This document shows positions 8,793 through 49,025 of a stretch of 64,000 nt of DNA, piece by piece. The notes under the pieces were generated by a model. That model ran no database searches. It was not told the DNA's origin and saw nothing but the letters and a program-made list of their open reading frames with translations. How positions within the stretch are numbered: position 1 is the stretch's first letter; each line of letters begins with the position of its first letter. Made by a program: the position numbers and the translations under genes. The stretch comes from Bdellovibrionales bacterium (lineage in GTDB: Bacteria; Bdellovibrionota; Bdellovibrionia; Bdellovibrionales; JAGQZY01): NCBI GenBank assembly GCA_964230555.1, contig CAXRIX010000078.1, positions 10 through 64,009 of the forward strand, read 5' to 3'.

Positions 8793-8819
8793 TTAAGCGA
8801 TCTCAGCAACTGACCGAAC
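8793..8819 (+). promoter_or_regulatory. Sigma-28 (FliA)-like promoter: TTAAG-N16-CCGAAC, with the -10 element 7 nt before ATG 8827
   Basis: TTAAG at 8793..8797 and CCGAAC at 8814..8819. The geometry matches that upstream of both fibre genes. There is no Shine-Dalgarno sequence between it and the ATG. Confidence 0.4.
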
Positions 8820-8826
8820 AATTTTT

Positions 8827-10599
8827 ATGTCTACTTTAAAAGTTTTTCTCACCACTGTTGTATTCGCTAGTTTTCAACTTTTTACTTTTCAAGCTCATGC
8901 CTTTGAAGCCTGGTGGCAATGCTCCAGTCGAATCGGCGGAGACTGGACTTTCGGCCGCGCCCCTTATTCCTGCCTAGTCGATCATATGCAAACCCAATCG
9001 ACGGTTAAGAATCAATATGGGCCCATCCTTTTTGAGGACGCACGATCTCGAAACACCGAGCGTGGACGCTACATGAACGAACTGAACGCTGTTGCTAAAG
9101 AGATGGCGCGATTTTATTTACAAAAAAGAAAGCCGCAAGCCAGTGAAGCTGAAATTCAAGCTTTTACAAAAGGTCTTTTGACACTTATGCACCAAGAAAC
9201 TGTGTGGTCCCATTTTCGTGTCGGCACCGACAATCGCGTGCGCTACATGCGTGGAGACAGTGGCCACGGTCACGGACTGATGCAAGTCGATGATCGCTCG
9301 CACCAGTCGGCTCTGTTGAGTGGCAAAGGCGTCGACCTGGCCCACAATATGGTTTACGGGTTGGATATTTTTTACGATGCTTGGCAACGGGCTCCGTCGC
9401 AAAGCTGTGTCAGTAGCTCGTCCAACTATACGGCGCGAACTCGCTCGGCATGGGCGGCTTACAATGGTGGGCCCGCACGCATCTGTCGATGGGCCAATCC
9501 GTCGAGCCCCTTTGCTCACCATGACGAACAGTTTTTAAGTAAATTGCGCAACCAGACCTTTAAAAGTTGGATCAGTTCAGAGACTCACAAAACTGATCTT
9601 AATATTTCTTGTCTGGTTGACGGCTCACGCCCCTGCGCCAACACCGGATCTGGCCCTGTTGTGCCGTCGGAGAATGAGGCTTATCAAATTGGCGATCTTT
9701 TCTGTCGATGGGGACAGTCGCTTTACTGTGTTGAGAGATTGAACGACCTTAAGTGCTTGGAGCTGGCTGACAACAGATCCTATCCCGTGCGTGGATCTCT
9801 TGACGAAGACCAAGTCGGCAACCGCCCTGTGGTGATCGCCGATCGTAATCAGCTTTGTGGTGAAAACGTGCAGGGACTTTTTGAAGTAAGCCAGCAGGTG
9901 GAACTTTTAAAAAATATCAACGTTCGCAAAACACCCGGTGGAGAGCTTTTAACAACCGCCAGCAGCGGCTTGCAGACGCGAGTTCTTGACTTTGCGGTGA
10001 CAAGCTCTTCGGATCAAAAGCGCTATTACAAAATTAACAGTGACGGCACTGAAGGCTACGTCTACGCCGGTGACAAACAAAGCTTTTTGGAGTGGGTCAC
10101 CGATGTCGAGGAACCGGTTGAACCAGAATCTTTGATTGCGCGCGTGGGAGACGACATTGAAGTGGTTGCTCCCTTTGGAATCAATTTACGAACATCACCC
10201 GGTGGCCGACTGCTTGTGCGTGTTCCTAATAGCGAGACTGTAGAGGTTGTTGATCGGATCGTCCAAGGCAGTAAAAACTATCTTTACTACAAAGTGCAGT
10301 ACCAAAACAGCGTTGGCTACATTTACTCGGGCTACCTTGATGATATGGAAACGGTTCCGCAATGGACTGTTGTCGTTAAAAGTTCCAACTTTTTGGCTCT
10401 TAATAGCAGCGTGCCATTCCGCTTTTTAAAGGCCTGCCCCAGCGACAGTTGTGATTTCACCTCGTCGGCTCTTCGCAGCGGCAGTGAACTTGATCAAGTG
10501 GAAGTTCTTGCAAGCCAAGGCCCTTGGGTGCGTGTTGCTAACACTGACAAGACCAAACAAGGCTGGATTCTGCTGTCTGACCTTCAGGAACAAAACTAG
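8827..10599 (+). CDS. Secreted goose-type (GH23) lysozyme / lytic transglycosylase with C-terminal SH3b-like repeats
   Basis: Signal peptide ending AHA-F. Catalytic-region signature HQETVWSHF...GDSGHGHGLMQVDDRSH...AWAAYNGGP, which matches g-type lysozyme GDxGxGxGLMQVDxRxH. The C-terminal half has three SH3b-like segments (NVRKTPGGELL..., NLRTSPGGRLLVRV...YYKVQYQNSVGYIYSGYL, WVRVANTDKTKQGWILLSDL). Confidence 0.75.
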   Translation: MSTLKVFLTTVVFASFQLFTFQAHAFEAWWQCSSRIGGDWTFGRAPYSCLVDHMQTQSTVKNQYGPILFEDARSRNTERGRYMNELNAVAKEMARFYLQKRKPQASEAEIQAFTKGLLTLMHQETVWSHFRVGTDNRVRYMRGDSGHGHGLMQVDDRSHQSALLSGKGVDLAHNMVYGLDIFYDAWQRAPSQSCVSSSSNYTARTRSAWAAYNGGPARICRWANPSSPFAHHDEQFLSKLRNQTFKSWISSETHKTDLNISCLVDGSRPCANTGSGPVVPSENEAYQIGDLFCRWGQSLYCVERLNDLKCLELADNRSYPVRGSLDEDQVGNRPVVIADRNQLCGENVQGLFEVSQQVELLKNINVRKTPGGELLTTASSGLQTRVLDFAVTSSSDQKRYYKINSDGTEGYVYAGDKQSFLEWVTDVEEPVEPESLIARVGDDIEVVAPFGINLRTSPGGRLLVRVPNSETVEVVDRIVQGSKNYLYYKVQYQNSVGYIYSGYLDDMETVPQWTVVVKSSNFLALNSSVPFRFLKACPSDSCDFTSSALRSGSELDQVEVLASQGPWVRVANTDKTKQGWILLSDLQEQN

Positions 10600-17097: not shown

Positions 17098-17124
17098 TCA
17101 AGCTTTTTGTAAAAATTCCCGATA
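17098..17124 (+). promoter_or_regulatory. Sigma-28 (FliA)-like promoter: TCAAG-N16-CCGATA, with the -10 element 7 nt before GTG 17132
   Basis: TCAAG at 17098..17102 and CCGATA at 17119..17124, followed by catagac then GTG. The spacing is identical to the fibre-2 promoter. Confidence 0.5.
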
Positions 17125-17131
17125 CATAGAC

Positions 17132-19720
17132 GTGGTTACGTTCGTGCAATTTATTAAATTTAACAGACCTTTGCGTTGTCTCTTTCGATTTCCAACATCG
17201 ACATCGGTGTTCTTGGCCCCCTTAATCTTTGCTTTTGTTTTATTTCACCACCCAGCGATGGCACAAATGGATACCGACTTTTCCGGCGGTGGAGCGGTTC
17301 GCGTCGGCGATTCCACTTCGACTTGTGACAGCGCAACCGCGGGCGCCATCCGTTATGATGCTGATGGCACCAACCTTGTCGGGTTCTGTGACGGATCGAC
17401 GTGGCTCGACTTTGTGACCTCTTCGGTGTCGGGGGTGGTTAATAACGGAAATAGTTTTGCTGCGCCGATGATAATCGGAACCAATGACGCCAATATTCTG
17501 CAGTTTGAAACTGGCGGCACAACACACGTGACCATCGACACCGCTGGTAATGTTGGAGTCGGTACCACCTCTCCTGGCCAGGCCTTAGATGTGCGAGGAT
17601 TCAATAGTCTACCTGCGTCTTCTGGCAGCACCCAAAATGGAGCCCTGAGGGTCTCTTCAACCGGTACCACCATGACCTTAGACGCCGGTGTTCACAGTGG
17701 CTCAGGGGCCTGGATTCAAGCCACCCAGCGCAACCTTTTGAATAACTCATTTAACTTATTACTGAATCCGAATGGCGGAGATGTTGGAATTGGCACTACA
17801 GATCCAGCTGGAAGACTTGAAGTTCAAAGCGCTACAAATGATGACACCAGCTCCGCTCTGATCCTTAAAAATTCGTCGGCCAATAATATTTTGAACGCTC
17901 GCAGTGACGGAAAACTTATCGTTGGCAATGTGAGCGATCCTCACGACGGCCTGGTGGCAATTGGTCATGCCTCATCCCCGACTTATCCCTCGATCGGAAC
18001 TTGGGGAGGCGCCGTCCATATTCTTCCCAGTGGTGGTATCAACGGCAATACCGCTTCAATCACTTTTGGTGCAAATGCTTCTGGCGGCGTTGAAAAAAGA
18101 GCTGAGGCCGGATTGTACGTACAATCGAGCGATGCGTACGGAACGCGGATGCACCTTGCCACCACCAACAGTTATGCCACCGGTTCACAGGCCCGTTTGT
18201 CGATCATGGAGGATGGGAAGGTGGGAATTGGCACTTCAACTCCAGCCGTCGAACTTGATGTGGGCACAGGCTCGATCAATGCAGCCGAAATTTGTGATGA
18301 AAACAATGCCAACTGTTTAGACCTTTCAGCCGGCGCTGGAGGGGGTGGCTACAGTGCTGGTGACACAATTTTATTTGCCGACGGAACCGGAGCCAATCCA
18401 GGATTGGCTTTCAACTCGGATCCGGACACTGGAATTTTCACTCAAGGCAGTGGCGAAATTCGTTATTCAATTAACGGAGGAAATATTGCCACCTTAGACG
18501 GTGGCGGCTTTGTGTCTTGGGGCGGATTGATGGCCGACAATGGTGATGCCACAACCCCTGATTTTCGCTTTGGGCTTGATCCGAATACGGGAATGTTTTC
18601 ACCGGCACCTGACACAATCGGCTTTTCAACGGGCGGCAACGAAGCTCTAACAATAGCCTCTTCCGGTTATGTTGGTGTCAATGAACCTTCGCCCACAAAA
18701 ACTTTACAGGTGGGAGGAGATTTTGGTGCTAGCTCGGTTGAGGTGTATAATGCCTCTGCTGGTGCCAGCCTGACCGCCATGGGTGCCGCAGCGGATGCTT
18801 ACAACTATTCGTACCTGAATCTAGCGAACACCGCGAACAGTAATCAATGGAGTCTTGCCTATAGAAATGGAACCACGATTGGAGCTGACGCCAACAAGTT
18901 AATGTTCAATTATTTTGATGGTAGTACCTATAATGACTTTTTAACATTGGACCCCAGCGGGAACATTGGGATTGGAACCACAGCTCCTTGGGCTCTATTG
19001 CAAATAGAAGACTCAGGTGATGCGCCTCTTATCGCGTTTACCAGCCCAAGTAATCTTAATGGTGGATTGATTATTGGTTCTGATGCAACTTCAGCGTACA
19101 TCGACCAAGTCGAGAATGAACCGCTCTTTATAATGACAAATGATACCACTCGCATGACAATTCTTGCCGGTGGTGATGTTGGAATTGGCACTTCGAGCCC
19201 CAGTTATAAACTGCACGTGAATGGCTCAGTGGCCGGAGTTGGCGCCTACAACAACCTTTCTGACCGACGCCTGAAGCGTGATATCGCGTCGGTGGAAAAT
19301 GCTTTGGACAAATTACTGCAGATTAATGGGGTGCTCTACAATTGGCGACGAGACGACTATCAAGACTACGATTTCCCGTCTGGCCATGACATGGGGGTCA
19401 TAGCCCAAGATGTGCAAAAGGTTTTCCCGGAAGCGGTCTCGCAAAGCGACCAAGGTCTTTTGTCGGTGGCTTATAGTAAGCTGATTGCTCCGATCATTGA
19501 AGCGATTCGTGAATTGAATTCTCGACTACAAAAAACTGAAAAAACTTTGCAATTAGAAGTTTCCGAATTAAAGGCTTCTCAGCAATTGAATGCAACTCAA
19601 AAAGACGCCGAGATCCAAAAACTTAAAAAAGATCTTGAACAAAAGAATGAGAAAATAAACCTTTTGTTAGAGCGAATTGAGATTATTGAGAAGCGACTTT
19701 CAGAAGGCGATAAAAATTAA
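17132..19720 (+). CDS. Secreted tail-fibre-like repeat protein (fibre 1) ending in an intramolecular-chaperone / peptidase S74-type autoprocessing domain
   Basis: 862 aa with a long signal region ending AMA-Q. Six modules end in G(N/D)VGIGT(T/S)xPxxxLxV. The C-terminus reads NNL-SDRRLKRDIASVENALDKLLQINGVLYNWRRDD...GVIAQDVQKVFPEAV...LSVAYSKLIAPIIEAIRELN followed by a coiled coil, the classic S74 chaperone signature. The start is uncertain (GTG 17132, GTG 17144 or TTG 17171). Confidence 0.8.
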   Translation: MVTFVQFIKFNRPLRCLFRFPTSTSVFLAPLIFAFVLFHHPAMAQMDTDFSGGGAVRVGDSTSTCDSATAGAIRYDADGTNLVGFCDGSTWLDFVTSSVSGVVNNGNSFAAPMIIGTNDANILQFETGGTTHVTIDTAGNVGVGTTSPGQALDVRGFNSLPASSGSTQNGALRVSSTGTTMTLDAGVHSGSGAWIQATQRNLLNNSFNLLLNPNGGDVGIGTTDPAGRLEVQSATNDDTSSALILKNSSANNILNARSDGKLIVGNVSDPHDGLVAIGHASSPTYPSIGTWGGAVHILPSGGINGNTASITFGANASGGVEKRAEAGLYVQSSDAYGTRMHLATTNSYATGSQARLSIMEDGKVGIGTSTPAVELDVGTGSINAAEICDENNANCLDLSAGAGGGGYSAGDTILFADGTGANPGLAFNSDPDTGIFTQGSGEIRYSINGGNIATLDGGGFVSWGGLMADNGDATTPDFRFGLDPNTGMFSPAPDTIGFSTGGNEALTIASSGYVGVNEPSPTKTLQVGGDFGASSVEVYNASAGASLTAMGAAADAYNYSYLNLANTANSNQWSLAYRNGTTIGADANKLMFNYFDGSTYNDFLTLDPSGNIGIGTTAPWALLQIEDSGDAPLIAFTSPSNLNGGLIIGSDATSAYIDQVENEPLFIMTNDTTRMTILAGGDVGIGTSSPSYKLHVNGSVAGVGAYNNLSDRRLKRDIASVENALDKLLQINGVLYNWRRDDYQDYDFPSGHDMGVIAQDVQKVFPEAVSQSDQGLLSVAYSKLIAPIIEAIRELNSRLQKTEKTLQLEVSELKASQQLNATQKDAEIQKLKKDLEQKNEKINLLLERIEIIEKRLSEGDKN

Positions 19721-19882: not shown

Positions 19883-19909
19883 TCAAGACTTTACCTAAAT
19901 AAACCGATA
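19883..19909 (+). promoter_or_regulatory. Sigma-28 (FliA)-like promoter: TCAAG-N16-CCGATA, with the -10 element 7 nt before GTG 19917
   Basis: TCAAG at 19883..19887 and CCGATA at 19904..19909, followed by gttacac then GTG. Confidence 0.5.
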
Positions 19910-19916
19910 GTTACAC

Positions 19917-22900
19917 GTGGAGACGTTGAGCGGTTTTATTAAAATGTTAAAGATTTCAAAGGCACAGTCGTTTTTCAAAAAACCGACAGGTCCACTTTTC
20001 TTTTTTCTTGTTTTCACCTTATTTTTTAATCCAAACTCTTTCGCGCAAGTCGACACCGACTTTTCGGGTGGTGGTGCCGTGCGTGTTGGTGACTCCACAT
20101 CAACCTGTGATTCTTCAACGGCTGGTGCCATCCGCTACGATGCTGATGGAACCAATTTGGTTGGGTTTTGTAATGGTTCGACTTGGCTCGATTTTGTCAC
20201 GTCTTCCGTATCCGGCGTCGTGAACAACGGCAATAGCTTTTCTGCACCGATGATTATTGGAACCAACGACGCCAATGTTTTACAGTTTGAAACGGGCGGT
20301 TCCAATCGAGTGACTATTGATACTTCCGGGAATGTTGGGATAGGCACAGACAGCCCCAGTGAAAAATTAGAAATTTTGCGAAATTTTGCAGGAATATCTG
20401 ACTCCTTGAAACTTACCAACACCAGCGCTTCGGATAGTCGTGGGTCTGGAGTCTTGTTCCACAGCGGAGCTGTCGACTCGGCTCGCTTGGCCTCAACTCG
20501 TGGATCCAACGATGCTTCAGGAGACCTTCATTTCTTCACTCGACAATCAAATGCTTTGGTGGAGTCTTTGTCGATTGTTGGTGCTAGTGGTTTTGTTGGT
20601 ATTGGCACGACCAGTCCGGCGGTTTCATTGGACGTCAATACAGGATCTATCAATGCAGCGGAAATTTGTGACGAAAACAACGCCAACTGTTTGGACCTGT
20701 CAGCCGGTGTTGCCGGAGACAATCTTGGTAGTCATCTTGCAACCACTTTTCTTAATATGGATGGAAATAATATTCGCCATCTTGGAATTGGAGATGCCGC
20801 CAGTCCCGGTTTGACATTTAGCTCTGACCTTAACACCGGTCTCTGGGCGCCAGCCGGTGACACTATCGCGGCCTCGACCGGAGGGGTTGAACGCTTCAGG
20901 ATCGACTCATCCGGCAATGTCGGGATCGGCACTGGAAACCCTACCGACTTGCTTCACATGTACGGCAGTAGCCCCAACTCCATAGGAATGACCATTGAAA
21001 ACAATAGTTCGGGTGCCAACTCCTATGCTGGAACGCTCTACACGGGTTCGACCGCTAACAATTACCTGTGGACGGGTATTGGAAATGCCGGCTCCGGCTA
21101 CCCTGGTGAGGCCTTTATTGAGGCCGGTGGCGGAGCCGCGGCACTGAACATCGGTTACTCTCCTCCCTTGAAACTATTGACTGGCACAACGGAAAGAATG
21201 CGAATCGACACCTCAGGCCGGGTTGGGATTGGAACAACCGCGACCACCAGTTTGTTGGAAGTTTATCGCAATGAAGATGTTGATCACTCCGATGGCGGTA
21301 TTGTGGCGACCAATGCCAATGCTGGAACAGCTTCAGCCATTGGAATGGGACTCGTCAACGACGAGGGCCCTATTGGTGGTATTACGGCCGGTAGCTCCAA
21401 CTATTCCAATGCCCTTTATCAGTCTCGACTGTCTCTGTATTCCAATGATTCGCTTTCCACCGGTGTGAATATAATCGCACCCCGAGCCGACGCCGACATT
21501 CGATTTGTGACAGGTGGCTTAGGTTCAGGCAATGAGAGAGTTCGAATCGATGCCTCCGGAAATGTTGGTATTGGAACAACTTCGCCCGCTGTTGAGTTGG
21601 ATGTTAACACCGGGTCAATCAATGCGGCTGAAATTTGTGATGAGAACAATGCCAACTGCTTGGACTTATCGGCGGGCGCTGGTGGTGGTGGTTACAGTGC
21701 TGGCGACACAATTTTATTTGCCGACGGAACCGGGGCGAATCCAGGTCTCGCTTTTAACTCGGATCCAGACACAGGGATATACACTCAGGGTAGCGGTGAA
21801 ATCCGGTACACGATCAATGGAGGAAACACGGCCACCTTGGATGGTAATGGCTTCGTCTCTTGGGGCGGACTGATGGCTGACAATGGAGACGCTACGAATC
21901 CCGATTTTCGTTTTGGACTCGATACAAATACCGGAATGTTTTCGCCAAGCGCTGATGCCATTGCTTTTTCCAATGGCGGTACAGAGACATTTCGAATTGA
22001 TTCCGCTGGTGATGTTTGGATTGGGAGTGCCAACCCTAACGTAGAACTTGATGTTAATGGTACAATCAAATCCAACTATATTGATGTTAGCTCAACCTCC
22101 AGCCCCCCCGGCTTCCAATATACCTATAATAACTTTTCCCATGAATTTGATGGCGGAGGAATAGGACCTGACGAAACAATTGTATACGGGTTTAATTCTG
22201 AGATAAATAACATCAGTATTGATTTTCAGGATTATGTCATCACAGGGCAATTTACCAATCGACTGACCGCTGGTTTGGCCGCGGGTCAAGTCGCAGTGGA
22301 TGCTCTCAGTTTCATAAGTACAGGAATGAGTACTTACGAAACCACAGGGGTCGCATCAACAGTGAGTGGCTCCGGTAATATCAATCAAGCCTATGGACTC
22401 AAATCCAGAATTCTTAATTCCAACACGTTGGACTCCTACGGGCTTTACATTGGAACGATCAACGGCGGTGACCAATGGGGAGTTTATCAATCGGGTGCTG
22501 ACGACACCAACTATTTCGCCGGCAATATTGGTATTGGCACAGCCACACCAGAGGTGGAGTTGGATGTTCACACCGGCTCGATCAATGCGGCTGAAATTTG
22601 TGACGAGAACAACGCTAATTGCTTAGATCTTTCGGCCGGAGTCGGTGGAGGCAGTGGCGATATTTCTAACGGCGGTAATACCAACGGAGCGGATATTACT
22701 ATTGGTACCAACGATGCTTACGATTTGAACTTAGAAGCCAGTGGTTCAACTGTTGCGACTGTCTCAAGCGATGGCGAGTTTATTGTTGGATCTCCTAACG
22801 CGATGTTTAGTGGTACCAAAAAGTTAAGAGTTGAATCCAATCCCTGGGATGCGTCAGGTGATTTTGCACACATTAATAACGAAATGTATAAAAACGGTAA

Positions 22901-23738
22901 CGCCCACTTCGGAAAAATTATAGGGATTCGCAATCAAATTCGGGGTGACTCTGGTAACAGTCAGGATGAGCAAATCGCAACCTACAATATGATCACCACT
23001 TGGGCGAACAGTCTGAATTCAGGGATGGGGACCTACAATGAACTGGAAAGCAAAGCTGGGAGTACCACTGACATGACCGGCTCCCTATCCAACTTAACAG
23101 TGGATGGCGGTACAGTACAAAATTACTATGGCTTTCGAGCCATGGCTTCAAATTCGGCCACCCTAACTAACGCCTACGGTCTTTATATCGACGACCTTCC
23201 TGGCACCACAACCTACGGGATTTACCAGGATGGCTCTTCAGATGATAACTACTTTTCAGGAAATGTTGGAGTTGGAACAAATGCTCCTTCAGCAAAGTTG
23301 GAAGTGGTGGGAGAGGTTCGCCCCGTGGATAGTTCCGGCAACAATCGACTTTGGGGTCAAGGTCGCCCGGGGGTTGCTCGGTACGGGACATCCGGCGTCG
23401 AAGCCGGGCTTTGTACCAATGGTGGTGTTTCGTTTGGCTTGAGCTACAGTGCTGTGAATTGGGAAGGCTCAGCCTCGGCTTGTCCTCAAGGGACCTGGGT
23501 TTGTACAGCTGCTGAGAAAGGGACTGCCACTTGCAATACGGCCCGTCCTGACCATGTTTCCAACGATGGAACTGACTGCACTGGGAGCTTTGTAAACTAT
23601 CCATCCAATAATCATCAAGGTTGGGTCGCTGATATCGGTGGCTACGTCAATTCCGGTTATACAATTTCAGAAAATGGCACAACAGACAACGGGCTGTTTC
23701 CATGTAATGCGCAACCCGTTTGGTGTTGTAGTGAATAA
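19917..23738 (+). CDS. Secreted tail-fibre-like repeat protein (fibre 2), a paralogue of fibre 1 with an 8-Cys C-terminal domain and no S74 domain
   Basis: 1273 aa with a signal region ending SFA-Q. The first 83 mature residues are nearly identical to fibre 1. Eight GNVGIGT..P...L.V module ends and three copies of GSINAAEICDENNANCLDLSAG. The C-terminal roughly 115 aa contain 8 Cys and end in WCCSE. An alternative start is ATG 19944. Confidence 0.8.
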   Translation: METLSGFIKMLKISKAQSFFKKPTGPLFFFLVFTLFFNPNSFAQVDTDFSGGGAVRVGDSTSTCDSSTAGAIRYDADGTNLVGFCNGSTWLDFVTSSVSGVVNNGNSFSAPMIIGTNDANVLQFETGGSNRVTIDTSGNVGIGTDSPSEKLEILRNFAGISDSLKLTNTSASDSRGSGVLFHSGAVDSARLASTRGSNDASGDLHFFTRQSNALVESLSIVGASGFVGIGTTSPAVSLDVNTGSINAAEICDENNANCLDLSAGVAGDNLGSHLATTFLNMDGNNIRHLGIGDAASPGLTFSSDLNTGLWAPAGDTIAASTGGVERFRIDSSGNVGIGTGNPTDLLHMYGSSPNSIGMTIENNSSGANSYAGTLYTGSTANNYLWTGIGNAGSGYPGEAFIEAGGGAAALNIGYSPPLKLLTGTTERMRIDTSGRVGIGTTATTSLLEVYRNEDVDHSDGGIVATNANAGTASAIGMGLVNDEGPIGGITAGSSNYSNALYQSRLSLYSNDSLSTGVNIIAPRADADIRFVTGGLGSGNERVRIDASGNVGIGTTSPAVELDVNTGSINAAEICDENNANCLDLSAGAGGGGYSAGDTILFADGTGANPGLAFNSDPDTGIYTQGSGEIRYTINGGNTATLDGNGFVSWGGLMADNGDATNPDFRFGLDTNTGMFSPSADAIAFSNGGTETFRIDSAGDVWIGSANPNVELDVNGTIKSNYIDVSSTSSPPGFQYTYNNFSHEFDGGGIGPDETIVYGFNSEINNISIDFQDYVITGQFTNRLTAGLAAGQVAVDALSFISTGMSTYETTGVASTVSGSGNINQAYGLKSRILNSNTLDSYGLYIGTINGGDQWGVYQSGADDTNYFAGNIGIGTATPEVELDVHTGSINAAEICDENNANCLDLSAGVGGGSGDISNGGNTNGADITIGTNDAYDLNLEASGSTVATVSSDGEFIVGSPNAMFSGTKKLRVESNPWDASGDFAHINNEMYKNGNAHFGKIIGIRNQIRGDSGNSQDEQIATYNMITTWANSLNSGMGTYNELESKAGSTTDMTGSLSNLTVDGGTVQNYYGFRAMASNSATLTNAYGLYIDDLPGTTTYGIYQDGSSDDNYFSGNVGVGTNAPSAKLEVVGEVRPVDSSGNNRLWGQGRPGVARYGTSGVEAGLCTNGGVSFGLSYSAVNWEGSASACPQGTWVCTAAEKGTATCNTARPDHVSNDGTDCTGSFVNYPSNNHQGWVADIGGYVNSGYTISENGTTDNGLFPCNAQPVWCCSE

Positions 23739-37078: not shown

Positions 37079-37106
37079 TCAAGAAGCCAACACAACTCCC
37101 GAATAG
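37079..37106 (+). promoter_or_regulatory. Weak candidate sigma-28-like promoter upstream of flagellin (TCAAG-N15-CCGAATAG)
   Basis: TCAAG at 37079..37083 and CCGAATAG at 37099..37106, about 50 nt before the ATG. The -10 deviates from CCGATAA. Confidence 0.3.
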
Positions 37107-37157
37107 TGGGGTGTTAAAAGTGACAAAAGTTTTTTAAAAAAAACGGGAGGAAACAAT

Positions 37158-37991
37158 ATGTCTATGCGAGTTGCTACAAATATGTCGGCGATCAATGCTC
37201 ACCGAACGATGCAAAAGAATAACCTGGCGATCCAAAGCAGTTTCGAAAAACTGTCTTCTGGTAGCCGAATCAACAAAGCTGCGGACGATGCTGCTGGTCT
37301 AGCCATTTCTGAAGGCTTGAAAGCGCAAATTCGTTCAGCCAGCCAAGCTAAAAGAAACACCAACGATGCGATCTCTTTAGTGCAAACTGCTGAAGGTGGT
37401 TTAAACGAAATTGGAAACATCGTTATCCGTCTTCGCGAGTTGGGAATCCAGGCCGCTTCTGATACCGTTGGAGCTGACGAAAGAGGCTTCATCAACGCAG
37501 AGGTTGCTCAACTTAAAGAAGAAATGCAACGAATCGCCGAAACAACAAAATGGGGAACGACCAACTTACTTGATGGATCAACTCCACAGTTTGATTTTCA
37601 AGTGGGAATCTTCAACAGTGACTCATCTGATCGAATCAGCTGGGATGGCGGAGCGAATGTCGCAACGATCGATGCTCTTGGTTTGTCCGCACTTGATTTC
37701 TCAGACAAAGTCGGAGCACAAAACGGCTTGGCTGAGCTTGATGCAGCACAAACTGAAGTGAACAGAATCCGCGCCAACATTGGTGCTGTTCAGAACCGTT
37801 TCAACTCCACTGTTTCGAATCTATCGAGCATGGAAGAGAACCTTTCTGCTGCGAACAGTCGAATTCGCGATACAGACATCGCTGCTGAGACTGCAAACTT
37901 AACTAGTAATCAAATTTTAATGCAGGCAAATACCGCAACATTAGCTCAGGCTAATCAGAAGAATCAACTTGCTTTGCAACTTCTAGGATAA
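37158..37991 (+). CDS. fliC: Flagellin
   Basis: 277 aa with N-terminus MRVATNMSAINAHRTMQKNN...LSSGSRINKAADDAAGLAISE and C-terminus TANLTSNQILMQANTATLAQANQKNQLALQLLG. GGGAGG RBS. Confidence 0.95.
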   Translation: MSMRVATNMSAINAHRTMQKNNLAIQSSFEKLSSGSRINKAADDAAGLAISEGLKAQIRSASQAKRNTNDAISLVQTAEGGLNEIGNIVIRLRELGIQAASDTVGADERGFINAEVAQLKEEMQRIAETTKWGTTNLLDGSTPQFDFQVGIFNSDSSDRISWDGGANVATIDALGLSALDFSDKVGAQNGLAELDAAQTEVNRIRANIGAVQNRFNSTVSNLSSMEENLSAANSRIRDTDIAAETANLTSNQILMQANTATLAQANQKNQLALQLLG

Positions 37992-47798: not shown

Positions 47799-47825
47799 TT
47801 AAGTTCCCCACCCAGAAACCGATAA
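47799..47825 (+). promoter_or_regulatory. Sigma-28 (FliA)-like promoter: TTAAG-N15-CCGATAA
   Basis: TTAAG at 47799..47803 and CCGATAA at 47819..47825, the closest match in the window to TAAAG-N15-CCGATAA. It lies 36 nt before ATG 47862, which has a GAGGAG RBS. Confidence 0.55.
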
Positions 47826-47861
47826 ATCCTTTAGAAGAATAACCCTAAATTCGAGGAGCCT

Positions 47862-49025
47862 ATGGTTCGTTTATTGATCATCTCCATTGCCTTCTTCTTT
47901 TCTTTTCAAGCAATGGCTGCCGACTGCGGTGTATTTAAAGTCGTCAAAGGCGACGTAACCTACTCCAAAAAAGGCAATAGCAAATTCAGAAAGGCTCGTA
48001 AGAATAAAAAAGTTTGCCAAGGCTATACAGTCAAAACGGCCGTCGATAGCCGAGCGAAAATTCAAATGGCCGACAAAAACGAAATTAACATTTCACCCGA
48101 TTCCGAACTGATCATCGAAGCTTATGAAACTGGCAAAAAAGCGGTTCTTAATGTTATCAACGGTAAAGTTCGCTCTGATGTAAAACAAAAATACAATGAT
48201 ACAAAGCAAAGTCATTATCGAGTTAAAACCAAGTCTGCTGTCGCCGGAGTTCGTGGAACCGAATTCTTAACCAGTTACAGCCGTGCCACCAACCGGTCAC
48301 GAGTCGTGACCTTCGAAGGGGAAGTGGCCGTTGGTCAAATTAAAGGTGGAAACTTCATTCCGCAAGTCACAGTCAAGCCAGGACAATACACTTCCAATAG
48401 CGTTGGTACGGCTCCACACCCTGCTCGCGATGTTCCACCCGCCGAGTTTGCCCAGATGGATCAAGAATCAAAAGTTGATGACGCCAGCCCAAGCAAACAA
48501 CCGGCAAGCGCGACTCAGCCTGAAAAGAAACCGAGTGATGACAAAGGCAGCAAACCTGAACCTAAACTTGAACCCAAAAGTGGCAAAGGCCAGAAAGGTC
48601 CTCAGGGAGCCCGTGGCAATCCGAAGCCGGGCATCGCAGTCAACGGCGATGGTTCGGATGGAATCGTCGGCAACGGTAACCCTGGCGAAGTTAGCGACGA
48701 TCAGTCTTACCGTGACGATGAACAGTATGGCGACCCCAACTTTGATCCTTCGCTGGAAGATGGTTCGGGCGGCGAGCGAGATATCGCCTCGATTGAGCCC
48801 GACGGAGGTATGAACAATCTTTTACCACCTCCAGATCTTGAAGCCGGCCCAGCTATGGAAGATATGATCGGCATCGAACCCAATATAGGGATTGTCGATA
48901 TGGACAACTTCGCTCCGGTGGACTCGCCAATGGACAACCCCATCATTCAAGATGGAGTTATCAACACTTCTGATCGTGTTCAGGTGATCATCAACCCCTG
49001 CCTTCCCGGGCAATGCGGTAACTGA
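47862..49025 (+). CDS. Secreted FecR-domain protein with a Pro/Gly/Asp-rich disordered C-half
   Basis: Signal peptide ending AMA-AD. FecR-like core (GDVTYSKKG...VKTAVDSRAKIQMADKNEINISPDSELII...VKTKSAVAGVRGTEF). The low-complexity C-terminus is about 190 aa. Confidence 0.65.
   Translation: MVRLLIISIAFFFSFQAMAADCGVFKVVKGDVTYSKKGNSKFRKARKNKKVCQGYTVKTAVDSRAKIQMADKNEINISPDSELIIEAYETGKKAVLNVINGKVRSDVKQKYNDTKQSHYRVKTKSAVAGVRGTEFLTSYSRATNRSRVVTFEGEVAVGQIKGGNFIPQVTVKPGQYTSNSVGTAPHPARDVPPAEFAQMDQESKVDDASPSKQPASATQPEKKPSDDKGSKPEPKLEPKSGKGQKGPQGARGNPKPGIAVNGDGSDGIVGNGNPGEVSDDQSYRDDEQYGDPNFDPSLEDGSGGERDIASIEPDGGMNNLLPPPDLEAGPAMEDMIGIEPNIGIVDMDNFAPVDSPMDNPIIQDGVINTSDRVQVIINPCLPGQCGN

What the first reader, a model, noticed from the sequence alone, without database searches (positions are those of the whole stretch)
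17098..17134. Three secreted-protein genes share a sigma-28-type promoter whose -10 lies exactly 7 nt before the start codon (candidate leaderless transcripts)
Fibre 1 reads TCAAG(17098)-N16-CCGATA(17119..17124)-catagac-GTG(17132). Fibre 2 reads TCAAG(19883)-N16-CCGATA(19904..19909)-gttacac-GTG(19917). The lysozyme gene reads TTAAG(8793)-N16-CCGAAC(8814..8819)-aattttt-ATG(8827). A fourth, leadered copy lies at 47799..47825 (TTAAG-N15-CCGATAA) before the FecR-domain gene, and a weaker one before flagellin. The FliA/sigma-28 consensus is TAAAG-N15-CCGATAA. None of the three genes has a Shine-Dalgarno sequence, and transcription starting about 7-8 nt after the -10 hexamer would begin at or within a base of the start codon, giving leaderless mRNAs. 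Both fibre proteins also keep a conserved x-T-x-x-x-F-I-K N-terminal extension ahead of the hydrophobic signal core, consistent with translation from these GTGs. Attack-phase genes of B. bacteriovorus have been reported to be enriched for FliA-type promoters. The fixed -10-to-start spacing is, as far as I know, not a described feature.
Basis: partly seen in the sequence, partly recalled or inferred. Interest (0 to 1): 0.6.

Follow-up and report, generated by a model that had tools for sequence, protein, structure and literature searches.

The report
Flagellar-sigma promoters giving leaderless mRNAs
Three genes of this Bdellovibrio-like predator, two of them prey-binding fibre genes, have a flagellar-type (sigma-28) promoter so close to the start codon that the mRNA should begin on that codon with no ribosome-binding leader, a layout found across the whole order and visible but never remarked on in published B. 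bacteriovorus start-site data.

Summary
T[CT]AAG-N16-CCGA[TA][AC] ends 7 nt before GTG 17132, GTG 19917 and ATG 8827. A leadered copy precedes the FecR-domain gene, and another precedes flagellin.

It is far from chance. In this genome the sigma-28 -10 box lies exactly 7 nt before the first start codon of 30 long ORFs, against a background of 4.8 (P 1e-14). ATG and GTG starts are enriched; TTG starts are not.

The abutment is kept in fibre homologues and in orthologues of the 8827 gene. It is over-represented across 121 Bdellovibrionales genomes.

In B. bacteriovorus HD100, the published 5'-end map places 37 of 140 attack-phase start sites on an in-frame ATG or GTG. These include nine fibre genes. 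The paper does not comment on this.

I therefore support leaderless, FliA-driven mRNAs (confidence about 0.8). No RNA data could be obtained for this organism.

Three corrections:
- Leaderless layout is not sigma-28-specific here; sigma-70-like boxes show the same peak.
- It is not tied to secretion.
- The "lysozyme" label is unconfirmed.

One new lead: an unexplained, frame-independent ACGT box lies near the 5' end of these transcripts.

The parts
17098..17124 (+). Sigma-28 (FliA)-type promoter of fibre gene 1: -35 TCAAG (17098-17102), 16-nt spacer, -10 CCGATA (17119-17124)
   Evidence: Read. Matches the B. bacteriovorus attack-phase consensus TTAAG-N16-CCGATA. The 34 nt from TCAAG to the GTG are identical in the orthologue of genome G012, although the proteins are only 73% identical.
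17132..19720 (+). Fibre gene 1 (862 aa). It is a MAT-type trimeric fibre with a C-terminal S74 chaperone/protease domain. GTG 17132 is the predicted +1 of the transcript and the start codon. ACGT box at 17138-17141.
   Evidence: ORF. Peptidase_S74 E 1e-18. PDB sequence hits to Bd3182 and Bd2133 fibres. Codons 2-7 differ from the G012 orthologue by 4 synonymous and 0 non-synonymous changes. The first 60 nt are unusually unstructured (z +2.25).
19883..19909 (+). Sigma-28-type promoter of fibre gene 2: TCAAG (19883-19887), 16-nt spacer, CCGATA (19904-19909)
   Evidence: Read. The G012 orthologue has TCAAG-N16-CCGATA-N7-GTG with a different spacer sequence.
19917..23738 (+). Fibre gene 2 (1273 aa), without an S74 domain. 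It shares the N-terminal domain and repeats with fibre 1. GTG 19917 is the predicted +1 and start codon. ACGT box at 19923-19926.
   Evidence: The first five residues, VETLS, are kept in the orthologue. The internal ATG (19944) is not kept at the same position.
8793..8819 (+). Sigma-28-type promoter of the 590-aa secreted SH3_3 protein gene: TTAAG (8793-8797), 16-nt spacer, CCGAAC (8814-8819)
   Evidence: Read. All four orthologues fetched from other genomes keep a box abutting the ATG: G012 has the identical layout; G008 and G009 have TYAAG-N16-CCGTAC-N8-ATG; G004 has TAAAG-N16-CCGTTA-N8-ATG.
8827..10599 (+). Gene for a 590-aa secreted protein with SH3_3 domains. ATG 8827 is the predicted +1. 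The lysozyme or transglycosylase nature is unconfirmed.
47799..47864 (+). Leadered sigma-28-type promoter: TTAAG-N15-CCGATAA (47799-47825), a leader of about 29 nt, SD GAGGAG (47853-47858) and ATG 47862 of the FecR-domain protein gene
   Evidence: NCBIfam gives weak hits to FecR-domain proteins Lsa33 and LipL45.
37079..37160 (+). Leadered sigma-28-type promoter of a flagellin gene: TCAAG-N15-CCGAAT (37079-37104), a leader of about 46 nt, SD GGGAGGA and ATG 37158. This is an internal positive control for the motif.

Best explanation
RNA polymerase carrying the flagellar sigma factor FliA (sigma-28) recognises T[CT]AAG-N16-CCGA[TA][AC] in front of the two fibre genes and the SH3_3 gene. It starts transcription on the purine 8 nt after the -10 hexamer. 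That purine is the first base of the GTG or ATG.

The mRNAs therefore have no 5' untranslated region and no Shine-Dalgarno sequence. They would be translated by the leaderless route, in which a ribosome with initiator tRNA binds the 5'-terminal AUG or GUG.

This is one local instance of a genome-wide and order-wide arrangement in Bdellovibrionales, in which roughly a quarter to a third of FliA-type (attack-phase) promoters abut the start codon.

What is shown:
- The motif, its spacing and its enrichment.
- Its conservation in related genomes.
- Coding-type conservation from codon 2.
- Start sites in HD100 lying on start codons of homologous genes.

What is inferred:
- That this organism's polymerase starts at N7.
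- That FliA is the sigma factor used.
- That 5'-GUG is translated efficiently.
- That the layout serves selective expression in the non-growing attack phase.
For: 1. Exact motifs and spacing.

2. Whole genome, motif-centred. Of 73 sites matching T.AA[AG]-N15/16-CCGATA, 27 have the start of an ORF of at least 100 aa 5-9 nt downstream, with the mode at 7.

3. Whole genome, ORF-centred. The sigma-28 -10 box ends 7 nt before the first start codon of 30 ORFs, against a background of 4.8 (P 1e-14). By start codon: ATG 21 (P 2e-12), GTG 8 (P 2e-6), TTG 1 (not significant). This is as expected if +1 must be a purine and the 5' codon AUG or GUG.

4. fliA is present (270.8 bits against a cut-off of 189.6). 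Flagellin genes carry the same box with ordinary leaders and a GGAGG.

5. Nine of 12 fibre homologues in three related genomes have the box with an in-frame GTG or ATG 7-11 nt after it, mostly 7. Spacers differ, and internal ATGs are not conserved.

6. Codons 2-7 of fibre 1 show 4 synonymous and 0 non-synonymous changes.

7. Orthologues of the 8827 gene keep the abutment at 45-98% identity.

8. Across 121 genomes of the order, the box followed by RTG occurs 529 times at N7 and 561 times at N8, against 222 at the control spacing N11.

9. HD100, from Karunker 2013 Table S2 read against the genome sequence:
- Mapped start sites lie 7-8 nt after CCGAxx in 76 of 81 FliA promoters.
- 25 of 140 start sites equal the annotated start. 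12 more lie on an in-frame ATG or GTG inside over-extended annotations. That gives 37 of 140, and 30 of 93 FliA-type.
[quoted passage not shown] 2024 (PMC10769870): Bd0704, Bd0705, Bd0884, Bd1130, Bd1334, Bd1712, Bd2133, Bd2582 and Bd3266.
- Three start sites lie on an in-frame GTG (Bd1283, Bd1936, Bd3241).
- RTG is the first triplet of 43 of 140 start sites, against 3 for RCG and 7 for RTA.

10. The 5' ends are unstructured.

11. [quoted passage not shown]
Against: - No 5'-end, ribosome or N-terminal peptide data exist for this organism.
- In HD100 the modal gap is N8 and all 30 FliA-type leaderless starts there are ATG apart from Bd1283. Here the mode is N7 and the two fibre genes use GTG. 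A polymerase starting at N8 here would produce a transcript beginning with UG.
- In E. coli, 5'-terminal GUG is a poor leaderless start (my own knowledge of the literature).
- Fibre 2 has an internal ATG (19944), and fibre 1 an internal TTG (17171). Each would give a more ordinary-length signal peptide.
- A plasmid study in B. bacteriovorus found that removing the RBS lowers reporter expression (PMC12622784). Those constructs were not leaderless fusions, however.
Confidence: 0.8

Rival explanations
1. Same promoters and start sites, but translation begins at downstream codons (ATG 19944 in fibre 2; GTG 17144 or TTG 17171 in fibre 1). The mRNAs would then carry short leaders of 12-39 nt without a Shine-Dalgarno sequence, and the conserved first codons would be an RNA or DNA element rather than coding sequence.
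For: - Starts at 19944 or 17171 would give signal peptides of ordinary length.
- ACGT at +7..+10 is conserved at nucleotide level, using the rarest Thr codon (13.8%) in 13 of 13 homologues. Part of the conservation after the GTG is therefore not peptide-driven.
- 5'-GUG is a weak leaderless start in E. coli (own knowledge).
Against: - The internal ATG is not conserved. It is ATT in the window's fibre 1 where the G012 orthologue has ATG, and it sits at a different codon in the fibre 2 orthologue.
- There is no SD before any internal candidate.
- Wobble-only changes occur in codons 2-7.
- GTG starts are enriched 10-fold at exactly N7 genome-wide.
- HD100 start sites coincide with the annotated ATG of nine fibre genes.
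Confidence: 0.1
2. The sigma-28 boxes are real, but the genes are mainly expressed from other, upstream promoters or by read-through (for example fibre 1 into fibre 2). The leaderless form would then be a minor species.
For: - No intrinsic terminator was found between fibre 1 and fibre 2 by the simple scan.
- In several other genes of the genome the 7-nt gap contains GGAGG-like strings. These could only act on a longer transcript.
Against: - Sigma-70-like matches upstream are at chance level.
- There is no SD at a usable distance before the three start codons.
- The sharp single-offset peak and its conservation argue that the abutting promoter is the selected feature.
- In HD100 the leaderless 5' ends are TAP-enriched primary ends with up to 9304 reads.
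Confidence: 0.07
3. Chance resemblance: short AT-rich motifs happen to lie before three start codons.
For: The motif is short, and one of the three -10 boxes (CCGAAC) is imperfect.
Against: - Poisson P 1e-14 for the offset-7 peak.
- The scrambled control hexamers ATAGCC, CGCATA and CCAGTA show no offset-7 excess (1, 0 and 8 long-ORF starts, against 26 for CCGATA).
- The pattern read backwards gives 0-2 hits per genome, against 4-19 in the window's genus.
- The layout is conserved in orthologues.
Confidence: 0.01

Closest known systems
FliA (sigma-28) attack-phase promoters of Bdellovibrio bacteriovorus HD100 (Karunker et al. 2013, PMC3627812)
   Same: Same consensus (TTAAG-N16-CCGATA), same kinds of genes (fibre or 'cell wall surface anchor' proteins, proteases, chemotaxis proteins, hypothetical proteins). 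In the supplementary table, start sites lie on the start codon for 37 of 140 promoters.
   Different: - The paper never mentions leaderless transcripts; the word stem 'leader' occurs 0 times.
- HD100 uses a gap of 8 nt (18 of 20 leaderless cases among those whose TSS equals the annotated start), and almost only ATG.
- This genome and its family prefer 7 nt and use GTG for the fibre genes.
Leaderless mRNAs of mycobacteria and other Actinomycetota (Shell et al. 2015, PMC4633059)
   Same: - ATG or GTG at +1, no SD, and a -10 box at fixed distance from the start codon.
- RTG over-represented at start sites: 22% in M. tuberculosis and 31% of HD100 attack-phase start sites.
- Annotated starts are frequently wrong.
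   Different: - There the promoters are housekeeping-type (TANNNT), and no downstream sequence is enriched.
- Here an alternative, flagellar-type sigma factor drives many of them.
- A frame-independent ACGT box is enriched just after the start codon.
Class 3 flagellar promoters of E. coli and Salmonella (sigma-28, TAAA-N15-GCCGATAA)
   Same: Same two-box architecture. A gap of 7 nt after CCGATA fits the position of the -10 element as I recall it (own knowledge). The flagellin genes of this genome use the box in the classical, leadered way.
   Different: In enterobacteria the regulon is small, flagellar, and leadered with SD sequences. Here it extends to non-flagellar genes, and a large share is leaderless.
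MAT (mosaic adhesive trimer) fibres of B. bacteriovorus (Caulton et al. 2024, PMC10769870)
   Same: The two window fibre proteins have a signal peptide, a conserved N-terminal domain of about 130 aa, repeats, and either an S74 end or a non-S74 end. There are sequence hits to Bd3182 and Bd2133 structures.
   Different: - That paper does not treat promoters or start sites; 'promoter' and 'FliA' each occur 0 times.
- The N-terminal domain here is too divergent to retrieve Bdellovibrionaceae fibres with a 96-aa query.

Membership tests
Sigma-28 / FliA-dependent promoter | -35 element TAAA / T[CT]AAG and -10 element (G)CCGATA(A), separated by 15-16 nt | tested here: met
   Two of the three leaderless copies have a perfect CCGATA. 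The third has CCGAAC.
Sigma-28 / FliA-dependent promoter | The genome encodes FliA, and the same box precedes late flagellar genes | tested here: met
   FliA_WhiG model scores 270.8 bits against a cut-off of 189.6 at C148:17580-18254. Four of five flagellin genes have the box 90-200 nt upstream.
Sigma-28 / FliA-dependent promoter | Transcription depends on FliA (genetic or in vitro test) | not testable with these tools
   Not done even in HD100 according to Karunker 2013, which says 'FliA knockouts are needed'.
Leaderless mRNA | The primary 5' end coincides with the first base of the start codon | not testable with these tools
The feature is met for homologous fibre genes in HD100 through published TAP+/- 5'-end data read against the genome.
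Leaderless mRNA | A -10 box at the fixed distance that places +1 on an ATG or GTG, with no Shine-Dalgarno sequence | tested here: met
   Gap of 7 nt in all three genes. Genome-wide peak at 7 nt, P 1e-14.
Leaderless mRNA | Translation starts at the 5'-terminal codon | tested here: inconclusive
   Indirect support only: synonymous-only changes from codon 2, a conserved +1 codon against non-conserved internal ATGs, and an unstructured 5' end. No peptide or ribosome data.
MAT-type fibre (fibre genes 1 and 2) | Signal peptide, a conserved beta-rich N-terminal domain of about 130 aa, a repeat-rich stalk, and an S74 or alternative tip | tested here: met
   S74 domain E 1e-18 in fibre 1. The two genes share an N-domain that is 91% identical. 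PDB sequence hits to Bd3182 and Bd2133. The trimeric fold was not modelled.
Lysozyme / lytic transglycosylase (gene 8827) | A recognisable lysozyme-like or SLT catalytic domain | tested here: inconclusive
   SLT scores only E 0.18, 11.8 bits against a cut-off of 21.3. No NCBIfam, PHROGs or PDB sequence match. SH3_3 domains are solid.

The most novel reading that the evidence does not exclude
Leaderless attack-phase transcripts of Bdellovibrionales, above all those for fibre and adhesin proteins, carry a previously undescribed cis element: an ACGT box, locally G-N-ACGT, 5-24 nt after the 5' end.

Evidence for the element:
- It is kept at nucleotide level in all three reading frames.
- It is invariant at +7..+10 in the window's fibre family, in 13 of 13 homologues.
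- It is present in 23 of 52 experimentally mapped leaderless or near-leaderless HD100 transcripts. That compares with 4 of 49 equivalent coding positions of leadered genes.

It would be a recognition site on DNA or RNA for a factor that adds a second layer of control on top of FliA. Examples would be choice or timing of fibre expression, mRNA stability, or leaderless initiation efficiency.
Probability: 0.4. Interest if true: 0.75.

Novelty: new variant of a known kind. Interest (0 to 1): 0.55.

Why it matters
- **Gene starts.** It fixes the true start codons of prey-recognition fibre genes and of many other attack-phase genes. Gene finders that expect an SD miscall them. In HD100, 12 of 28 start sites that fall 'inside' a gene lie on in-frame start codons of over-extended annotations.
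- **A coupled expression channel.** It shows that an alternative sigma factor and leaderless translation are coupled on a large scale in a whole bacterial order. That could let non-growing attack-phase cells express a defined gene set independently of SD-led initiation.
- **Engineering.** Promoter and RBS toolkits for Bdellovibrio take about 100 bp upstream of the 'putative start'. For leaderless genes that fragment carries no RBS at all.
- **Transcription start choice.** The shift from 7 to 8 nt between families offers a natural experiment on start-site selection by sigma-28 holoenzyme.
- **A testable element.** The ACGT box is a concrete, testable candidate regulatory element for the fibre repertoire.

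Tried and rejected
- **Link to secretion.** A crude hydrophobic N-terminus test gives 42% for sigma-28-leaderless ORFs, 45% for sigma-70-leaderless ORFs and 44% for SD-led ORFs. There is no enrichment.
- **ACGT box as a general leaderless signal in this genome.** Rejected. Only the two fibre genes among 52 predicted sigma-28-leaderless ORFs carry it.
- **ACGT as a restriction or methylation site under avoidance.** It looks depleted against mononucleotide expectation (0.44). Under a trinucleotide Markov model, however, observed/expected is 0.94, so there is no support.
- **An antisense partner for the ACGT box among the eight published HD100 attack-phase sRNAs.** Nothing convincing.
- **Literature.** 'Bdellovibrio' with 'leaderless' returns no relevant paper. 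'Leaderless mRNA' with 'FliA' returns nothing on sigma-28-driven leaderless genes. The comparative TSS paper does not mention it.
- **Terminator between the two fibre genes.** None found by the simple scan.
- **The 'lysozyme' label for gene 8827.** Not confirmed.
- **A wasted call.** One DNA alignment used loci in the wrong orientation and was discarded. The codon comparison was redone.
Full report
**Observation.** The three motifs are in the sequence exactly as described.
- TCAAG(17098)-N16-CCGATA(17119-17124)-catagac-GTG(17132).
- TCAAG(19883)-N16-CCGATA(19904-19909)-gttacac-GTG(19917).
- TTAAG(8793)-N16-CCGAAC(8814-8819)-aattttt-ATG(8827).

Each start codon is the first ATG/GTG/TTG of its open frame. 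The 7-nt gaps hold no Shine-Dalgarno sequence. The leadered copy before the FecR-domain gene is also as stated: TTAAG 47799, N15, CCGATAA 47819-47825, GAGGAG 47853-47858, ATG 47862. So is the one before flagellin: TCAAG 37079, N15, CCGAAT 37099-37104, ATG 37158.

**The organism and the genes.** The window is part of a 3.6-Mb, 45% G+C draft genome. Its nearest public relatives are labelled uncultured Pseudobdellovibrionaceae / Bdellovibrionales.
- Fibre 1 (862 aa) ends in a Peptidase_S74 chaperone domain (E 1e-18). It hits the solved fibres Bd3182 and Bd2133 of B. bacteriovorus.
- Fibre 2 (1273 aa) shares the N-terminal domain and repeats with fibre 1.
- Both fit the MAT fibre architecture of Caulton et al. 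2024: a signal peptide, then a conserved domain of about 130 aa, then a mosaic stalk and tip.
- The third gene encodes a 590-aa secreted protein with SH3_3 domains. A lysozyme-like SLT domain is only a faint hint (E 0.18), so I do not adopt the name 'lysozyme'.

**Is it more than chance?** I laid the whole genome in the script box and asked where sigma-28 -10 boxes lie relative to start codons.
- Of 73 strict sites (T.AA[AG]-N15/16-CCGATA), 27 are followed 5-9 nt later by the start of an ORF of at least 100 aa. There are 11 at 7 nt and 6 at 8 nt.
- Anchoring on the first start codon of 2884 ORFs of at least 150 aa, CCGA[TA][ACT] ends exactly 7 nt upstream 30 times. The mean at offsets 12-59 is 4.8 (P 1e-14).
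- The peak holds separately for ATG (21, P 2e-12) and GTG (8, P 2e-6), but not for TTG (1). That is what one expects if the first transcribed base must be a purine and the 5' codon AUG or GUG.
- The scrambled control hexamers ATAGCC, CGCATA and CCAGTA show no excess at offset 7 (1, 0 and 8 long-ORF starts, against 26 for CCGATA).
- The genome encodes FliA. Its flagellin genes carry the same box with 60-190-nt leaders and strong GGAGG sites. The motif is therefore the organism's real sigma-28 signal.

An important qualification follows. A sigma-70-like -10 box, TA[ACT]AAT, shows an equally sharp peak 6 nt before 32 first start codons, against a background of 5.0 (P 8e-16). Leaderless layout is thus a general habit of this genome, and sigma-28 promoters simply take part in it. 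The 'fixed -10-to-start spacing' is the geometric signature of leaderless genes, as is known for Actinomycetota. It is not a property peculiar to these three genes. The layout is also not tied to secretion: signal-peptide-like N-termini are as frequent among SD-led ORFs (44%) as among sigma-28-leaderless ones (42%).

**Conservation.** I examined twelve fibre homologues from three related genomes. Nine have T[CA]AAG-N16-CCGATA (or CCGATG / ACGATC) followed by an in-frame GTG or ATG. The gap is 7 nt in six of them, 8 nt in one and 5-11 nt in the rest. Spacer sequences differ between paralogues. All begin [M/V]-x-T-[L/F/W].
- Between the window's fibre 1 and its G012 orthologue, codons 2-7 differ by four synonymous and no non-synonymous changes. 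That argues the GTG frame is translated from the very first codons.
- The alternative internal starts are not conserved. The orthologue's ATG at codon 8 is ATT in the window. The internal ATG of fibre 2 sits at a different codon in its orthologue.
- All four orthologues of the 8827 gene fetched from other genomes, down to 45% identity, keep a sigma-28-like box 7-8 nt before the ATG, although the N-terminal peptide changes.
- The predicted 5' ends are unstructured. Fibre 1 folds at -1.8 kcal/mol against -7.2 for shuffles (z +2.25).

**Experimental support from a relative.** Karunker et al. 2013 mapped primary 5' ends (TAP+/-) in attack-phase B. bacteriovorus HD100. They reported the consensus TTAAG-N16-CCGATA in 92 of 140 promoters. 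I read their Table S2 against the HD100 chromosome.
- The mapped start lies 8 nt (63 cases) or 7 nt (13 cases) after CCGAxx in 81 FliA promoters.
- 25 start sites equal the annotated start codon.
- 12 of the 28 start sites that fall inside annotated genes lie on an in-frame ATG or GTG, so those annotations are too long.
- Together, 37 of 140 are exactly leaderless, and 30 of 93 among the FliA-type. A further 15 have leaders of 1-4 nt.
- The exactly leaderless set includes nine MAT-type fibre genes: Bd0704, Bd0705, Bd0884, Bd1130 (9304 reads), Bd1334, Bd1712, Bd2133, Bd2582 and Bd3266. A tenth fibre gene, Bd2740, has a 2-nt leader.
- Three start sites lie on an in-frame GTG (Bd1283, Bd1936, Bd3241).
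- RTG is the first triplet of 43 of 140 start sites, against 3 for RCG and 7 for RTA. This is the same kind of excess that defines leaderless translation in mycobacteria (PMC4633059).

The 2013 paper does not mention any of this. Neither does the MAT fibre paper or the 2025 promoter/RBS toolbox paper. Full-text searches for Bdellovibrio with 'leaderless', and for 'leaderless mRNA' with FliA, found nothing relevant.

**Breadth and a lineage shift.** I searched 121 genomes of the order for TNAAR-N15/16-CCGATA followed by RTG at different gaps. There were 529 matches at gap 7, 561 at gap 8 and 222 at the control gap 11.

| Group | N7 | N8 | N11 |
|---|---|---|---|
| All 121 genomes | 529 | 561 | 222 |
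| Window's family | 167 | 128 | 51 |
| Window's genus | 113 | 68 | 33 |
| Family holding HD100 | 53 | 161 | 60 |

The window's family prefers 7 nt. The family that holds HD100 uses 8 nt only. As far as I recall the E. coli element GCCGATAA, a gap of 7 nt after CCGATA is the canonical position; I did not check this in a paper. The difference means I cannot simply transfer the HD100 start position. The sharp N7 peak in this genome implies that its polymerase starts at N7, but that remains an inference.

**Mechanism.** The best-supported reading is as follows. FliA holoenzyme starts on the G or A of the start codon. The transcript has no leader. A ribosome with initiator tRNA binds the 5'-terminal GUG or AUG. 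One speculative rationale is my own inference. In the non-growing attack phase, a sigma factor that emits leaderless transcripts gives a gene set whose translation does not depend on SD-led 30S initiation. Notably, the hibernation-factor gene Bd0848 is itself in the FliA list of Table S2.

The rivals are:
- initiation at downstream codons on a short SD-less leader (about 0.1);
- dominant expression from other promoters or by read-through (about 0.07);
- chance (below 0.01).

**An unexpected extra.** As a result, ACGT is invariant at +7..+10 in 13 of 13 homologues, while the neighbouring wobble positions vary.

In HD100, an unbiased 4-mer test makes ACGT by far the most enriched word in +4..+27 of the 52 leaderless or near-leaderless transcripts.
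- It occurs in 23 of 52.
- In the same sequences 30 nt further on, it occurs in 1 of 52. In leadered 5' ends it occurs in 6 of 88 (P 6e-10).
- In the equivalent coding positions of leadered attack-phase genes it occurs in 4 of 49 (P 4e-5).
- It falls in all three codon phases (10/9/5), with G two bases upstream in 21 of 24 cases. It is therefore a nucleotide-level signal, not a peptide motif.
- It remains enriched without the fibre paralogues (13 of 42, P 0.007).
- Order-wide, leaderless-type sites followed by ACGT (about 80) outnumber those followed by TCGA (about 56), although TCGA is 3.4 times commoner in G000.

In the window's genome only the two fibre genes have the box. I found no explanation. 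It is not a word under restriction-type avoidance (Markov observed/expected 0.94). No published attack-phase sRNA is an obvious partner. Mycobacterial leaderless genes have no such downstream element.

**Earlier notes of this scan.** Notes on other genomes (e1-5127269, e1-2394658, e1-5244641) describe the same promoter-start abutment. I treat them as leads only. Everything above was recomputed here.

**Verdict.** The phenomenon is a new variant of a known kind: leaderless mRNAs driven on a large scale by an alternative, flagellar-type sigma factor. It is visible in published data but undescribed. An unexplained ACGT box is the most novel thread.

Noticed in passing
window 17138-17141 and 19923-19926; HD100 loci L052-L191 (+5..+24 of mapped transcripts): An ACGT box (G-N-ACGT) lies just after the start codon of leaderless attack-phase transcripts. 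It is invariant in 13 of 13 fibre homologues of the window's genus. In HD100 it occurs in 23 of 52 leaderless or near-leaderless transcripts, against 4 of 49 leadered coding starts. It falls in all three reading frames. Its function is unknown.
   Followed up: partly
whole genome G000 (no single window coordinate): Sigma-70-like -10 boxes TA[ACT]AAT end exactly 6 nt before the first start codon of 32 long ORFs, against a background of 5.0 (P 8e-16). Leaderless genes are therefore a general feature of this genome, not only of the FliA regulon.
   Followed up: partly
121 Bdellovibrionales genomes: The preferred gap between CCGATA and the start codon differs by lineage. The window's family uses 7 nt more than 8 nt (167/128, control 51). 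The family holding B. bacteriovorus HD100 uses 8 nt only (53/161, control 60).
   Followed up: partly
HD100 = G083, loci L052-L091: Twelve HD100 genes have annotated starts 6-252 nt upstream of a mapped primary 5' end that lies on an in-frame ATG or GTG. They are Bd0524, 0551, 0704, 0847, 1104, 1283, 1355, 1891, 1921, 1936, 2383 and 3548. Their annotated N-termini are probably too long. Conversely, Bd0217 probably starts 11 codons earlier, at its start site.
   Followed up: yes
HD100 L113 (742680) and about ten Bdellovibrio genomes: The mapped start site upstream of Bd0791 begins ATG TGG GCT GGA TGC CCT TGA, a 6-codon leaderless mini-ORF. Its promoter and ATG are identical or nearly identical in about ten Bdellovibrio genomes.
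   Followed up: no
genome G008, contigs C6, C10, C31, C35, C43: An identical 36-nt sigma-28 box plus GTG (TCAAAAAATATAATTGTGAACCGATAAGTCTATGTG) occurs at least six times, twice within 90 nt of contig ends. This suggests a multi-copy gene family or repeat that breaks the assembly.
   Followed up: no
window 17098-17134 compared with L001 1467-1503: The 34 nt from TCAAG to the GTG of fibre 1 are identical in the G012 orthologue, although the first 140 residues are only 73% identical. The promoter and 5' end are under stronger constraint than the protein.
   Followed up: partly
window 17132-17191: The first 60 nt of the predicted fibre 1 mRNA are much less structured than shuffled versions: -1.8 against -7.2 kcal/mol, with all 200 shuffles folding better. 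This is consistent with selection for an open 5' end.
   Followed up: partly
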